A stretch of DNA of 64,000 bases from Abditibacterium sp. (lineage in GTDB: Bacteria; Armatimonadota; Abditibacteriia; Abditibacteriales; Abditibacteriaceae). The translations under genes and the position numbers were made by a program. A model generated the notes under the pieces. The model ran no database searches and had not been told where the DNA came from. It saw nothing but the letters and a program-made list of their open reading frames with translations. Below are positions 9,255-13,015 of this stretch, one piece after another. Each line of letters starts with the position of its first letter. Positions within the stretch are counted from its first letter, which is position 1. The stretch covers positions 3,712,001 through 3,776,000 of the forward strand of contig CBDASK010000003.1 in assembly GCA_965199495.1 (NCBI GenBank), written 5' to 3'.

Positions 9255-9400
9255 AGGCGAATAAATTCGCAGCCACAATTAGGTGTCGGCCTGCGCCGAC
9301 ACGTCGCAACATGAACGAAGCAAAACGGCTCTTCGTTTAGTGTGTTCTCTTCGTGTCGGCGCAGGCCGACACCTAATTATGGCTGCGAATTTATTCGCCT
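9255..9400. repeat. REP-doublet (REPIN-like) inverted repeat upstream of Y1 transposase
   Basis: Arm AGGCGAATAAATTCGCAGCCACAATTAGGTGTCGGCCTGCGCCGACACG and its near-perfect reverse complement; each arm holds two small hairpins. Confidence 0.85.
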
Positions 9401-9410
9401 TTCTGCGCGA

Positions 9411-9419
9411 TGCTATAAT
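9411..9419 (+). promoter_or_regulatory. Extended -10 promoter element upstream of transposase
   Basis: TGCTATAAT (TGnTATAAT) about 30 nt before ATG 9449. Confidence 0.55.
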
Positions 9420-9448
9420 TCAACTCGTCCCCATTTCAAATTCAACTT

Positions 9449-9901
9449 ATGCCCAACACCAACAGGCGTCTCGTTCGCGGCGACAAAATTGAGATTTACG
9501 TTCACTTCATCTGGACGACTTTCGACCGGCAAGAATGGATCGCGCCTCATCTGGAGGCCGAACTCTTTCCGCTTATCAACGCGATGGGCCAGCGTCATGG
9601 TTGCAAAACGTTGGCGATTAACGGTGTCGAAGATCATCTGCATTGGCTGGTCAAGTATTCTTCCACCACGCTGACCTGCGATGTGGCCAAAGATTCCAAA
9701 GGCGCTTCTTCCAAATGGATGGGCGAGCAATTCGAATCGTTCAAGTGGCGCCCGACTTATGCGGCCTTTTCGGTCTCGCGCTGGAATGTGCGCAAAATCA
9801 TGAATTATATCGCGCGCCAGAAAGAACATCACGCTAATGGCACGACCGATAAACGGCTGGAAAGCGAGGACGAGTGGCTGGAAATCGCGGATGGGGAGTA
9901 G
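9449..9901 (+). mobile_element. tnpA: IS200/IS605-superfamily Y1 (HUH) transposase, probably REP-associated (RAYT-like)
   Basis: YVHFIWTT, HUH motif DHLHWL, FKWRPTYAAFSVS, catalytic Tyr in YIARQKEHH; flanked on both sides by the same palindromes; no tnpB. Confidence 0.85.
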
Positions 9902-10007
9902 GCGAATAAATTCGCAGCCACAGTTAAGTGTCCACCTTCGTGGACACGGAAAATGGGTGTGTCGGCGAAGGCCGACACTTAACTGTGGCTGCGAATTTAT
10001 TCGCCTA
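9899..10007. repeat. REP-doublet (REPIN-like) inverted repeat downstream of Y1 transposase
   Basis: TAGGCGAATAAATTCGCAGCCACAGTTAAGTGTC...GACACTTAACTGTGGCTGCGAATTTATTCGCCTA; begins at the tnpA stop codon; same family as 9255-9400. Confidence 0.85.
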
Positions 10008-10017
10008 AACTAACCCC

Positions 10018-10662
10018 GTGAATTTATCGCTCTTTGCCGATGATGCAGCCACGCCGCCTGTATCGCCGCTAAATCTGCCCAAACATCTGCTCGACATCAA
10101 TACGATTTATCACGAGCCGAACGTTTTCGAGTTCGCGCGCGGCAGAGAAATCCGCGCGTGTTTTCCCGACTCCAATCTCATCGAAGTGCCTTCGCACTGG
10201 CAAATTCCCGAACTTCATGGCGACGCCGCAAACGATGCCGATTGGCTCGGCATCAAGCGCGAAACTTTGGTTCTGGGCGTGCGCAAGGCGATGAAAATGG
10301 AAGCCAACACGCGTTCGAGCGATTGGATCGCGCCCGCCGTGGCTAACGGTTGCGCCAGCGCGTGCGCGTATTGCGTGGCGGCGGGTACGCTTATTTCGAC
10401 GCCACAAGGCCAAGTTCCCGTCGAGCAAATCGAGGATGAAGCCGAAGTAATCGCTTTCGATAGTTCTTCGGGACAACTCGCAACAGCTCGCGTTTGCGGG
10501 TTGGCTTCGCGGGAAGTAAGCGAAGTTCTCGAAATTGATCTTGGCGACCGAGTGCTTCGTGTAACGGCAGAGCATCCGCTTTGGACGCGTAGAGGCTGGG
10601 TAAAAGCCGGAGATCTAACTCCAGACGATGAAGTTCTGTGTGATGAAAGCAGCACAGAGTAA
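10018..10662 (+). CDS. splB: Spore photoproduct lyase family radical SAM protein, N-extein (118 aa) fused to split intein N-part (96 aa, 10372-10659)
   Basis: SPL-like N-terminus (IEVPSHWQIPELHG, SSDWIAP, ANGCASACAY), then intein block A CVAAGTLISTPQG and block B LRVTAEHPLWT...GWVKAGDLTPDDEV, then a stop. Confidence 0.9.
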   Translation: MNLSLFADDAATPPVSPLNLPKHLLDINTIYHEPNVFEFARGREIRACFPDSNLIEVPSHWQIPELHGDAANDADWLGIKRETLVLGVRKAMKMEANTRSSDWIAPAVANGCASACAYCVAAGTLISTPQGQVPVEQIEDEAEVIAFDSSSGQLATARVCGLASREVSEVLEIDLGDRVLRVTAEHPLWTRRGWVKAGDLTPDDEVLCDESSTE

Positions 10663-11224
10663 TGCCGTTTTCGACATCGCACTTGTCATCGGGGAAGAGC
10701 GCGACAGGCAAAACGTGATGCGCTTGCAACTGCGTTTCGCTTCCGCAAATGCGGCAACAGCCGTCTCTCTCCAAAACGGCTCGCGCCCATTCTTTGCCAC
10801 TGCGCCGTTGTCGAAAGCCGCTTTGACTGCGTCCGTTGACATAATTGGGATTGCCCGCGCCACAATGCCGCTTCGCTATAATCGCCGCTTGAGCGCGCCG
10901 TCCCGCTCCGGCGCGCGAACACTGCGGGCAATAGCCGTAGCGGTTTTCATTGGTTTTGAACGGGGCGTCACACACGCGGCACCCCTGCCACTTGATAGTT
11001 GAGCGAGCAATGGTTCGGTCAATGGCAAACAAAACGCCTTCCCATCGGCGAACAGTGCGCGCATCGCGGCCCAGATAAAGCGCGGCCTGCCCGTAAGAAG
11101 CCACAACTTTGAACGGCATTGCTTCCATATTTGCTAAGTGTTGGCGGCACGTCGCGCAGCAAAACGCTTGAGGCGTCCGCTTGCCACACCAACCGCACGC
11201 CAGCGTGCCATTTGTCTGTCTCAT
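10391..11224 (-). CDS. Zinc-finger HNH endonuclease (putative homing endonuclease), antisense within the split-intein element
   Basis: VLERDGCCRICGS..LQAHHVLP..FPDDKCDVENGITLCCFHHTELH HNH core; N-terminal CxxC pairs; GAGNPNY motif before the HNH domain. Confidence 0.85.
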   Translation of the reverse strand: MRQTNGTLACGWCGKRTPQAFCCATCRQHLANMEAMPFKVVASYGQAALYLGRDARTVRRWEGVLFAIDRTIARSTIKWQGCRVCDAPFKTNENRYGYCPQCSRAGAGRRAQAAIIAKRHCGAGNPNYVNGRSQSGFRQRRSGKEWARAVLERDGCCRICGSETQLQAHHVLPVALFPDDKCDVENGITLCCFHHTELHRLELDLRLLPSLYASKADALPLHEALGRQDQFRELRLLPAKPTRKRELLRVVPKNYRKRLLRLHPRFARRELGLVASK

Positions 11225-12104
11225 GTTGAAATTCCGAAAAATTCAATCCATCCGCCGCGTGAGCGAACCACAAACCGTTTACAACTTTCATGTCCCCGGC
11301 CCGCAGTCGTATCTGGCCAATGGAATTGTAACCCATAACTGTTATGTCGCTCGTCGCAAAGGCCATGCTAACCCGATTACGACGTTCGTCAACATCGAAC
11401 AAATGACGAAATATCTGGCGCGTCACGCGATGCGTCAGGGCGAAAAAAGGGCAGCCACGCCCGCCGACGACAAATTATGGGTTTACGAAATTGGCTGCAA
11501 CTCCGACACTTCGATTGATGCGGCGATTTCGGATAACGTGCGCGATTTTGTCGAACTGTTTAGGACGTTGCCCAACGCCAAAGGCACTTTCGCCACCAAG
11601 TGGGTCAACCGCGCGATGTTCGATTACGACCCGCAACGCAAAACGCGCGTAAGGTTTTCCCTCATGCCCCAGCGCATGGCGAAGTTAGTTGACGTTCGCA
11701 CTTCGCCAATTAGCGAGCGCATCGCGGCGATGAACGATTTTTACGAAGCGGGCTACGAAGTCAATGTCAACTTTTCGCCGGTCGTCATCGAAGACGGTTG
11801 GTTGGAGGCTTACGACGAACTGTGGGACGAAATGAACGACGTTTTGCGGCCCGAAGTGAAAGCCGATTTGGTGGCCGAAGTGATTTTCCTGACGCATCAC
11901 GCCGGTTTGCACGAAGTCAATTTGCAGTGGCATCCGCGCGCCGAAGCCGTCTTGTGGCAACCCGCAATGCAGGAGCGCAAAATCTCGCAGGGCGGCGGTA
12001 TCAACGTGCGTTACAAAGTGAGTTTGAAGCAGCCTTTGGTCGCGCAGTTCGTGGCGCGAATGCGCGCTAAGTTGCCGGAGTGTCGCGTGCGTTACGCGTT
12101 TTGA
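11223..12104 (+). CDS. splB: Split intein C-part (39 aa, 11223-11339) fused to SPL-family C-extein (254 aa)
   Basis: MLKFRKIQSIRRVSEPQTVYNFHVPGPQSYLANGIVTHN|CYVARRKGHANPITTFVN...VYEIGCNSD...FATKWVN...RVRFSLMP...CRVRYAF; blocks F/G with terminal His-Asn and +1 Cys. Confidence 0.9.
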   Translation: MLKFRKIQSIRRVSEPQTVYNFHVPGPQSYLANGIVTHNCYVARRKGHANPITTFVNIEQMTKYLARHAMRQGEKRAATPADDKLWVYEIGCNSDTSIDAAISDNVRDFVELFRTLPNAKGTFATKWVNRAMFDYDPQRKTRVRFSLMPQRMAKLVDVRTSPISERIAAMNDFYEAGYEVNVNFSPVVIEDGWLEAYDELWDEMNDVLRPEVKADLVAEVIFLTHHAGLHEVNLQWHPRAEAVLWQPAMQERKISQGGGINVRYKVSLKQPLVAQFVARMRAKLPECRVRYAF

Positions 12105-13015
12105 GCGGGTTTATTCGCCATGACTTCGACTGCGCGCGGCACGATTTCAAATGTCATCGGCGCCGTGCCGATTAACTCGCCATCCACCAAAATTGGCCAA
12201 TTGCGGTCACACCACAGTTCCACTTTGCGAGCGCGACGCATAACCACGCGCGGATGATGAACGTGCGCGCCCCGAAACACGCCGGGGAAAGCGCGCGCAA
12301 ATTCCATTTTGCTTGCGTCTTGAATCACGCAAATATCGAATAATCCGTCATCTAACTGCGCGTCGGGCGCGACTTGCATTCCGCCGCCATACGATTTCGC
12401 GTTCGCCACGGCACATAAAAGCGCGCACGTATCGAGCAGTTCGCCATCCAATCTCAGGCGCAGGCGCGCGGGACGCAGACGTTGCAGTTCGAGTGTCGCC
12501 GCCGCCAGATATGCAGCCACGCCGCTGATGTGTTTCCAAACCGGATGCGTGCGCCCGGCGTTGATGCGGCGCGCGACGAGGGAATCGAAGCCGCAACCGG
12601 CGATGTTGAGGAACAATCGCGATTGCTCGCCGTGTTGACCGTAAGTCGCGCGCCCGATGTCAATGGTTCGGCTGTGCCCGCCAAATAAAATCTGAATCGC
12701 GCTGTCTAAGTCGTTGCCAATTCCCAGCGTGCGAGCGAAGTCGTTGCCGGTGCCCAACGGCAAAACGCCCAATTTGGTCTTTGTTCCATGAACCGCGTTC
12801 AAGACCTCGCCCATCGTTCCGTCGCCGCCCGCCGCCGCCACGATGTCGGCGCCGTGGCTGATAGCGACGCGCGCCAACGCGCGCACCTCGGACGGCGATT
12901 TAGTTTCGATGATTTCAAACGCCAAATCGCCCGCGTATCGCGCGATTTGTTCGTGCAATGCGGCGCGCGACACGCGACCACGTCCGGCGGCGGGATTGAA
13001 AATAATGGCGAGCAT
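12092..13015 (-). CDS. Diacylglycerol/lipid kinase family protein (YegS/BmrU-like)
   Basis: NPAAG, AAGGDGT, LPLGTGNDFAR, YGGGM, DDGLFD, VDGE motifs. Confidence 0.9.
   Translation of the reverse strand: MLAIIFNPAAGRGRVSRAALHEQIARYAGDLAFEIIETKSPSEVRALARVAISHGADIVAAAGGDGTMGEVLNAVHGTKTKLGVLPLGTGNDFARTLGIGNDLDSAIQILFGGHSRTIDIGRATYGQHGEQSRLFLNIAGCGFDSLVARRINAGRTHPVWKHISGVAAYLAAATLELQRLRPARLRLRLDGELLDTCALLCAVANAKSYGGGMQVAPDAQLDDGLFDICVIQDASKMEFARAFPGVFRGAHVHHPRVVMRRARKVELWCDRNWPILVDGELIGTAPMTFEIVPRAVEVMANKPAQNA

What the first reader, a model, noticed from the sequence alone, without database searches (positions are those of the whole stretch)
10391..11225. Antisense HNH endonuclease interlocked with both intein halves (dual-coding homing element)
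Seen: a 277-aa Zn-finger/HNH ORF on the minus strand fills the gap between IntN and IntC and continues 272 nt antisense through IntN, stopping 19 nt from the intein's first base. The last HNH residues (TLCCFHHTELH) are encoded by the same DNA as the IntN tail (PDDEVLCDESSTE*). Its ATG (11224-11222) and the IntC ATG (11223-11225) share one CATG. The overlap is not in the codon-aligned antisense frame, and IntN DNA uses codons atypical for this host (AGA, CTA, GTA, GGA). Known: 'fractured genes' with free-standing endonucleases between split-intein halves are described from phage-like metagenomic loci. Inference: a 968-bp selfish unit (10372-11339) in which the nuclease drives homing into empty splB alleles and the overlap locks nuclease and intein together. 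Endonuclease invasion in reverse orientation may be what split the intein.
Basis: partly seen in the sequence, partly recalled or inferred. Interest (0 to 1): 0.88.

Follow-up and report, generated by a model that had tools for sequence, protein, structure and literature searches.

The report
Nuclease gene overprinted on split intein
A selfish DNA element in bacterial and phage DNA-repair genes uses the same 270 bases for a protein-splicing domain on one strand and a folded nuclease tail on the other, an unusually clear case of a new protein domain born inside an old gene.

Summary
Confirmed and extended. A 968-bp element (10372-11339) splits a spore-photoproduct-lyase-family radical SAM gene at its CxxxCxx^C motif into IntN and IntC halves. 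A 277-aa Zn-finger/HNH gene lies on the opposite strand; its last core helix and a 78-aa helical tail are read antisense through IntN. The same layout occurs in several bacterial groups and 32 viral loci. Both frames are under selection: 0 antisense stops in 36 of 36 distinct split loci (1.8-6.1 expected each), against 3-7 stops in 6 of 7 HNH-less mini-inteins; four-fold sites of IntN are 0.65 identical against 0.30-0.36 elsewhere. A free HNH remnant keeps the tail while its IntN frame is dead. AlphaFold folds the tail at pLDDT 94-98. Relatives show empty alleles, re-fused mini-inteins (not one clade, AU p 3e-6), halves at separate loci in one MAG, and a jump to another radical SAM gene. Fractured genes and antisense intein nucleases are each published; overprinting of the splicing domain itself was not found in 9 literature searches. 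Expression, splicing, cleavage and homing are inferred, not shown.

The parts
10018..10371 (+). N-extein of a spore photoproduct lyase family radical SAM protein (TIGR03886), ending with the first two Cys of CxxxCxxC
   Evidence: E 1.2e-36, residues 27-120
10372..10662 (+). IntN: N-terminal half of the split intein (Cys1, block B His-Pro, 96 aa, stop 10660-10662), net charge -9 over residues 1-90
   Evidence: PT-HINT E 5.3e-8; TIGR01445 E 0.002, below its cut-off
10391..11224 (-). Zn-finger/HNH endonuclease gene, 277 aa
   Evidence: AlphaFold mean pLDDT 93; fold matches HNH nucleases
10391..10627 (-). Overprinted helical tail of the HNH protein (residues 200-277), wholly antisense to IntN codons 7-86
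10628..10804 (-). HNH core (residues 141-199; C157, C160, H169, H170, N186, C191, H195, H199); residues 189-199 lie antisense to the end of IntN
   Evidence: invariant columns
10919..11197 (-). N-terminal putative DNA-binding part of the HNH protein: two four-Cys clusters (residues 10-26, 82-102) around a two-helix segment
   Evidence: DNA-binding role is inference
11222..11225 (.). Shared CATG: start codons of IntC (+) and HNH (-)
   Evidence: present in 24 of 36 distinct split loci
11223..11339 (+). IntC: C-terminal half of the split intein (39 aa, ends His-Asn), net charge +3 over its last 36 residues
   Evidence: TIGR01443 E 5.1e-8, above cut-off
11340..12104 (+). C-extein of the radical SAM protein; its first residue is the +1 Cys nucleophile and the third Cys of CxxxCxxC
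   Evidence: (TIGR03886 E 1.7e-119)

Best explanation
A mobile, dual-coding split-intein element. A free-standing HNH gene entered a mini-intein in reverse at the usual nuclease position and broke it in two (inferred). The HNH reading frame ran on into the antisense of IntN; that read-through became a selected, folded helical domain, so about 270 nt now encode the Hint N-half one way and the end of the nuclease the other way (shown by sequence evolution). The host radical SAM enzyme is made as two chains, N-extein-IntN (acidic) and IntC-C-extein (basic), which associate and splice in trans to complete the CxxxCxxC iron-sulfur motif (inferred from intact motifs and charges). The HNH, made from the other strand, cuts or nicks intein-less alleles near the Cys-motif codons, and repair copies the 968-bp unit (inferred). 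The element decays by three routes seen in relatives: deletion of the HNH with re-fusion to a mini-intein, separation of the halves to different loci, and escape of the HNH with its tail.
For: Layout conserved in 11 of 12 metagenome loci, 3 named-genome loci, one same-genus genome and 32 of 36 viral loci, at 25-65% GC and IntN identity down to 35%. Antisense stops in IntN codons 11-90: 0 in 36 of 36 distinct split+HNH loci, expected 1.8-6.1; 3-7 in 6 of 7 mini-inteins. HNH stop sits at IntN codons 3-10 in all split loci. Four-fold-site identity IntN 0.65 v IntC 0.30, HNH non-overlap 0.32, C-extein 0.36 (10 loci); 0.89 v 0.76/0.65/0.49 (21 viral loci). Reciprocal decay: free remnant L040 keeps HNH position 2 (0.66-0.75) and loses position 3 (0.36-0.46), 8 stops in its IntN frame; old mini-inteins lose HNH position 2 (0.53-0.59). 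Tail modelled as helices at pLDDT 94-98. IntN negative and IntC positive in 35 of 35 split pairs. Both halves intact at separate loci without HNH in G401. Mini-inteins are not one clade (p-AU 2.7e-6) and carry the synonymous imprint (z 6.3 and 10.2 for L003, L049). Mobility: 6 empty, 1 mini, 1 split among 8 same-genus orthologues; L037 element far closer to the window than its extein is (IntN 69%, HNH 48%, extein 39%; viral clade 35-45%, about 30%, 30-43%); L074 has the element in a different radical SAM family at the same motif.
Against: No expression, splicing or cleavage data. Within the genus, intein and extein have diverged to a similar degree (L004: IntN 73%, HNH 60%, extein 70%) and the pattern fits inheritance with loss as well as homing (4 changes on the extein tree). 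The CATG is not shared in 12 of 36 loci. Several HNH copies are broken (L039 insertion, L047 5' deletion, L074 frameshift). Rooting failed: outgroups did not form one side, so the order of events rests on the age of the Hint fold and on nesting under a midpoint root. The five Chloroflexota mini-inteins show only a weak imprint (z 1.4-3.1) and could be never-invaded forms. Loci are related, so the 36 are not independent trials.
Confidence: 0.8

Rival explanations
1. The overlap is real and selected, but the element no longer homes: the HNH is kept for another role (for example a repair or regulatory partner of the lyase, or antisense control of it) and the unit is mostly inherited vertically.
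For: Similar divergence of intein and extein within the genus; Chloroflexota and Rubrobacter copies group the same way on intein and extein trees; convergent overlap must give antisense transcripts (sequence).
Against: Repeated loss of the HNH with the intein kept; many empty alleles; element/extein discordance in L037 and a different host gene in L074.
Confidence: 0.12
2. Antisense shadow: the HNH ends functionally at residue 199 and the rest is neutral read-through that looks conserved only because IntN is conserved.
For: On the window alone an open frame has P about 0.035; mini-inteins give tail-like antisense translations by themselves (L003 63%); L049, a mini-intein, is still open.
Against: 0 stops in 36 of 36 split loci; IntN synonymous sites twice as conserved as controls; the tail stays conserved in L040 where IntN is dead; ten proteins carry the tail (24-51 bits) yet cannot encode IntN block B above the shuffled level.
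Confidence: 0.02
3. The tail is an older domain of a free-standing HNH family and the free forms are ancestral; the overlap arose later by co-adaptation rather than by birth of the tail on IntN.
For: Divergent tail-bearing proteins without an IntN-compatible antisense exist; the HNH tree is largely unresolved at its base and could not be rooted.
Against: IntN aligns without gaps to the ancient Hint family, so about 80 codons cannot have been shaped from a pre-existing tail gene; free-type rows fall in three places among overlap-type rows; the tail was found only attached to this HNH type among 191 proteins held.
Confidence: 0.04
4. An in-frame HNH domain of a contiguous intein was inverted, or the middle segment is an invertible switch.
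For: The HNH sits where intein nuclease domains normally sit; in-frame HNH inteins exist (bioRxiv 10.1101/2025.01.02.630785, section 8).
Against: No inverted repeats flank the segment; the last core helix lies inside IntN, so flipping the middle would truncate it (sequence); the 8 longer proteins found were 6 mini-inteins and 2 unrelated Hint proteins (a weak search); no opposite-strand joint at the element in 3 runs.
Confidence: 0.02

Closest known systems
Fractured genes: split intein with a free-standing endonuclease between the halves (Dassa et al. 2009, PMC2677866; passages and section 16 read)
   Same: IntN, endonuclease gene, IntC in one locus inside a conserved DNA-metabolism gene; acidic and basic halves; frequent in phages; their model foresees loss of the nuclease and dislocation of the halves, both seen here.
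   Different: There all three coding regions are on one strand, with 27-51 non-coding bases after IntN, GIY-YIG or Vsr-like nucleases, and overlaps of 6-69 bp with IntC. Here the nuclease is an HNH on the opposite strand, overlaps 272 nt of IntN (almost the whole half), and shares a CATG with IntC.
Inteins with antisense or out-of-frame nucleases (Gosselin et al., bioRxiv 10.1101/2025.01.02.630785; passages and sections 8, 15 read)
   Same: Nuclease encoded on the antisense strand inside an intein, proposed to come from a free-standing gene and to keep homing.
   Different: [quoted passage not shown] Here the intein is split and the splicing domain itself is dual-coding.
Cyanobacterial DnaE split intein (described in PMC2677866 section 16 as the dislocated end state)
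   Same: G401 has the two halves at separate loci with no nuclease.
   Different: Different host gene; here the linked, nuclease-bearing precursor is still common.
Zn-binding HNH nucleases (GVE2 HNH 5h0o, EcoKMcrA 6ghc, T5 SciA 9qgx)
   Same: Core fold, residues about 127-228 (Z 6.6, rmsd 5.4, 81 aligned for 5h0o) and His/Asn/Cys pattern.
   Different: Library matches end at residue 199-204; the tail matched no Pfam, NCBIfam or PHROG model in those calls.
De novo genes by overprinting (viral and bacterial antisense overlaps; search listing and abstract starts only)
   Same: A new frame written over an older gene, under two-frame selection.
   Different: Here it is a domain fused to an old enzyme core, spread over several phyla and phages, with natural controls that kept only one of the two frames.

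Membership tests
Fractured gene (Dassa 2009) | Host gene in two ORFs, in original order, ending and starting with split-intein halves | tested here: met
Fractured gene (Dassa 2009) | Free-standing endonuclease gene between the halves | tested here: met
Fractured gene (Dassa 2009) | All three coding regions on the same strand, non-coding gap after IntN | tested here: not met
   HNH is on the opposite strand and overlaps IntN by 272 nt; paper text
Fractured gene (Dassa 2009) | GIY-YIG or Vsr-like nuclease | tested here: not met
   HNH by Pfam, PHROGs and fold
Naturally split intein (class 1) | Cys1, block B Thr/His, terminal His-Asn, +1 Cys/Ser/Thr | tested here: met
   block B reads T-A-E-H
Naturally split intein (class 1) | Opposite net charges of the halves | tested here: met
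   35 of 35 split pairs
Naturally split intein (class 1) | Protein trans-splicing | not testable with these tools
   indirect only: halves intact at separate loci in G401
HNH homing endonuclease | Intact HNH core with conserved His, Asn, His and Zn ligands | tested here: met
   H169, H170, N186, H195, H199 invariant in 29 rows; fold
HNH homing endonuclease | Cognate empty alleles and a patchy or discordant distribution | tested here: inconclusive
   empty alleles exist; discordance for L037 and L074; within the genus loss explains it as well
HNH homing endonuclease | Site-specific cleavage of the empty allele | not testable with these tools
   needs a bench assay
Intein with antisense nuclease (Gosselin 2025) | Contiguous intein frame running across the nuclease | tested here: not met
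   IntN stops at 10660-10662; all three plus frames have stops across the HNH
Overprinted (dual-coding) gene | Purifying selection on both frames | tested here: met
Overprinted (dual-coding) gene | Both frames expressed | not testable with these tools
   no RNA holder listed
Spore photoproduct lyase family (TIGR03886) | Profile match over both exteins and CxxxCxxC motif | tested here: met
   126.6 + 399.1 bits on the two halves, each below the whole-protein cut-off 437.55 alone; lyase activity not tested

The most novel reading that the evidence does not exclude
A folded 78-residue protein domain arose de novo as the antisense reading of an intein's splicing domain, became a needed part of a homing nuclease, spread with the element across bacterial phyla and phages, and was later carried off by free-standing nucleases that no longer overlap any intein. 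The family preserves every stage: empty site, dual-coding split element, re-fused mini-intein, separated halves and escaped nuclease.
Probability: 0.72. Interest if true: 0.93.

Novelty: new variant of a known kind. Interest (0 to 1): 0.86.

Why it matters
Long antisense overlaps in prokaryotes are disputed, and the birth of new folded domains is rarely traceable. Here both frames encode recognisable proteins, and nature supplies both single-frame controls, so the cost of dual coding and the folding of a de novo domain can be tested directly. It also gives observed intermediates for how split inteins arise, re-fuse and separate, and a new set of more than 30 natural split inteins and an HNH family for protein and genome engineering. 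The insertion point makes completion of a radical SAM iron-sulfur motif depend on trans-splicing.

Tried and rejected
Expression: no RNA holder listed among 6 runs, so nothing either way. HNH homodimer prediction (residues 128-275, two copies): no answer, score 0.00, not evidence. Single-sequence fold of a free-type protein P0016: pLDDT 45, uninformative. The tail was not folded and searched alone, so no claim of a new fold is made; whole-model searches were dominated by the HNH core. ESM Atlas search with the tail: best 0.79, below the lead level. DNA for the divergent free-type proteins was not found: viral scans with A1, P0056 and P0185 gave no locus, A6 gave 6 core-only HNH hits, A8 gave only the L074 contig again; GenBank phages gave 1 core-only hit among 50,697 records. 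Outgroup rooting failed for intein and HNH trees. Promoter scan: 2 weak sites against 1.1 expected, not used. Rfam: nothing near a gathering score. No inverted repeats at the element, so inversion was rejected. Phylum search: 401 genomes, full-length HNH only in G000 and G012, one tail-only shadow, the rest core-only. Nine paper searches found no description of this family or of a nuclease overprinted on a splicing domain; the library lacks most subscription papers, and I did not see the supplements of either paper read, which could list a similar overlap.

Full report
OBSERVATION. The window holds a spore photoproduct lyase family gene (TIGR03886) in two plus-strand ORFs, 10018-10662 and 11223-12104. 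The first ends in a 96-aa Hint N-half starting at Cys 10372; the second starts with a 39-aa C-half ending His-Asn before Cys+1 at 11340, the third Cys of the CxxxCxxC motif. A 277-aa ORF on the minus strand, 11224-10391, has an HNH core (Pfam HNH_2; 6 of 7 PHROG matches are named HNH) and runs 272 nt into IntN. The genome has no second copy of the element. IntN and the HNH tail have poor codon adaptation (0.49, 0.47), IntC and the exteins do not (0.68-0.72). Taken alone, the open antisense frame has P about 0.035.

THE FAMILY. Among 12 other genomes of the genus, 8 have a close orthologue: 6 empty, 1 contiguous mini-intein (L003), 1 with the same split layout (L004); 3 same-family genomes are empty. 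Protein searches gave 12 close homologues covering 72-97% of the HNH and about 20 more at 27-43% identity with the tail. DNA searches gave the layout in 11 of 12 metagenome loci. Of 31 genome loci found with IntN, 11 were close: 3 split with HNH, 7 mini-inteins, 1 lone IntN half; titles name Abditibacteriota, Rubrobacter, Chthonomonadaceae and Chloroflexota. Of 36 viral loci, 32 have it, at 25-37% GC and IntN identity 35-49%. Checked viral hosts are TIGR03886-family genes, except L074 (548-kb contig), where the element sits at the same Cys motif of an AmmeMemoRadiSam-type radical SAM gene.

BOTH FRAMES ARE SELECTED. (a) Stops. After removing identical IntN sequences, 44 remain. Antisense stops over IntN codons 11-90: 0 in 36 of 36 split loci with HNH, where redrawing synonymous codons gives 1.8-6.1 on average; 3, 5, 5, 7, 6, 5 and 0 in the 7 mini-inteins; 1 in the lone half. 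The HNH stop falls at IntN codons 3-10 throughout. These loci are related and are not 36 independent trials. (b) Synonymous sites. In this frame IntN third positions are HNH second positions. Four-fold-site identity is 0.65 in IntN against 0.30 (IntC), 0.32 (HNH outside the overlap) and 0.36 (C-extein) for 10 metagenome and genome loci; 0.89 against 0.76, 0.65 and 0.49 for 21 viral loci; 0.46 against 0.32, 0.28 and 0.19 between the groups (duplicates, truncated loci, L047, L074 and L075 left out of the groups). IntC and the HNH body belong to the same mobile unit, so recent transfer cannot explain it. (c) Reciprocal controls. L040 is an HNH remnant in an unrelated setting: its tail is 46-61% identical in protein, with position 2 kept (0.66-0.75) and position 3 decayed (0.36-0.46), and 8 stops in the IntN frame. 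Old mini-inteins show the mirror image, HNH position 2 decayed to 0.53-0.59; overlapped pairs keep all three (0.63-0.92). This argues for protein-level selection rather than an RNA or DNA signal. (d) Ten further proteins score 24-51 bits on a tail profile built from 18 DNA-verified rows (next best 10.7 of 191 proteins) but cannot encode IntN block B above a shuffled control (4-24 against mean 25, maximum 47; close overlap-type proteins 73-115). That test is ungapped and under-scores forms with a one-codon insertion (30-52), and L040 scores 51, so these ten are probable, not DNA-verified, free forms.

STRUCTURE. AlphaFold2 with 61 rows gives mean pLDDT 93 (pTM 0.66); residues 201-270 form seven short helices at 94-98. 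Fold searches match the core to HNH nucleases (5h0o Z 6.6, rmsd 5.4, 81 aligned; Foldseek best E 0.03) and barely test the tail. H195 and H199, invariant in 61 rows, are encoded inside IntN, so the nuclease core itself ends in the overlap.

LIFE CYCLE. IntN is acidic and IntC basic in 35 of 35 split pairs, as for known split inteins. The 13 mini-inteins are not one clade (34 rows, 126 columns, p-AU 2.7e-6); P0177 groups with the window, L003 with L004, L049 with L045. L003 and L049 keep the HNH-driven synonymous pattern (z 6.3, 10.2); five Chloroflexota minis keep it weakly (1.4-3.1). One lichen metagenome of 3 runs laid has contigs that join 10371 to 11340 (empty allele) and 10650 to 11226 (re-fused mini-intein), and a contig over the HNH; these are relatives at 85% likeness or more, not the same strain. 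In MAG G401 the IntN half lies inside contig C1 with unrelated DNA behind it, and the IntC half lies on C63 and C32 behind an unrelated gene, with its own start; both ORFs are intact and no HNH is near. That is the dislocated state known from DnaE, with the caveat of MAG binning. The shared CATG is kept in 24 of 36 distinct split loci, including most viral ones.

MECHANISM. Shown: architecture, boundaries, two-frame selection, allele states. From established knowledge of class 1 inteins and radical SAM enzymes: splicing needs Cys1, block B His, terminal His-Asn and Cys+1, all present, and the iron-sulfur motif is complete only after splicing. Inferred: trans-splicing; expression from the minus strand; cleavage of empty alleles and homing. 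For homing, L037 has an extein as distant as the viral clade's (39% against 30-43%) but an element much closer to the window (IntN 69% against 35-45%, HNH 48% against about 30%), and L074 shows a change of host gene. Against, divergence within the genus is as expected for inheritance with loss. Direction: IntN belongs to the old Hint family, so the tail must be the newcomer; trees could not be rooted to confirm this. What the tail does is open; stabilising the last core helix or adding DNA contacts are my guesses.

KNOWN KIN. Dassa 2009 (PMC2677866; passages; section 16): same-strand GIY-YIG or Vsr-like genes between split halves, short overlaps with IntC. Gosselin 2025 (bioRxiv; passages; sections 15 and 8): antisense LAGLIDADG and Vsr-like genes in full inteins, typically outside the splicing domain. 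So neither 'fractured' nor 'antisense' is new. The combination, an HNH antisense in a split intein whose splicing half is overprinted, with the new domain surviving outside, was not found in 9 searches (all other papers seen as listings and abstract starts only). It works like a fractured-gene homing element but fails two of that group's described features.

VERDICT. Real, conserved dual coding; new variant of a known kind; interest 0.86. Best explanation 0.8; de novo domain with later escape 0.72.

Noticed in passing
window 9255-10010: Y1 tyrosine transposase (9449-9901; IS200/REP-associated type) flanked by two pairs of 49-nt palindromic REP-like repeats (9255-9303/9352-9400 and 9899-9947/9959-10007), with a related 15-mer at 12105-12119 just after the lyase gene.
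   Followed up: partly
G401: L045 (C1:44649-45212) and L124/L125: Split lyase-family gene with the two intein halves on different contigs, no nuclease: a candidate new genomically separated split intein.
   Followed up: yes
L074:3605-7544: In a 548-kb viral contig the element sits in an AmmeMemoRadiSam-type gene; the HNH is frameshifted and about 1.8 kb with further ORFs lies between it and IntC.
   Followed up: partly
L047:2379-2798: HNH has lost its N-terminal half but keeps core and tail open (140 aa), the same size as the short free-type proteins P0047, P0049, P0058.
   Followed up: partly
L039 and L040: HNH genes interrupted at their 5' part by what look like insertion sequences (family recalled, not tested).
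   Followed up: no
G000:C3:1704367-1705191 and C3:1534439-1537141: A distant second lyase-family paralogue (22-24% identity) and two other Hint C-terminal-like motifs elsewhere in the genome.
   Followed up: no
L037:81-4196: Phage-like neighbourhood with dCMP deaminase and an endonuclease (PHROG 174, 8420) beside the split lyase gene.
   Followed up: partly
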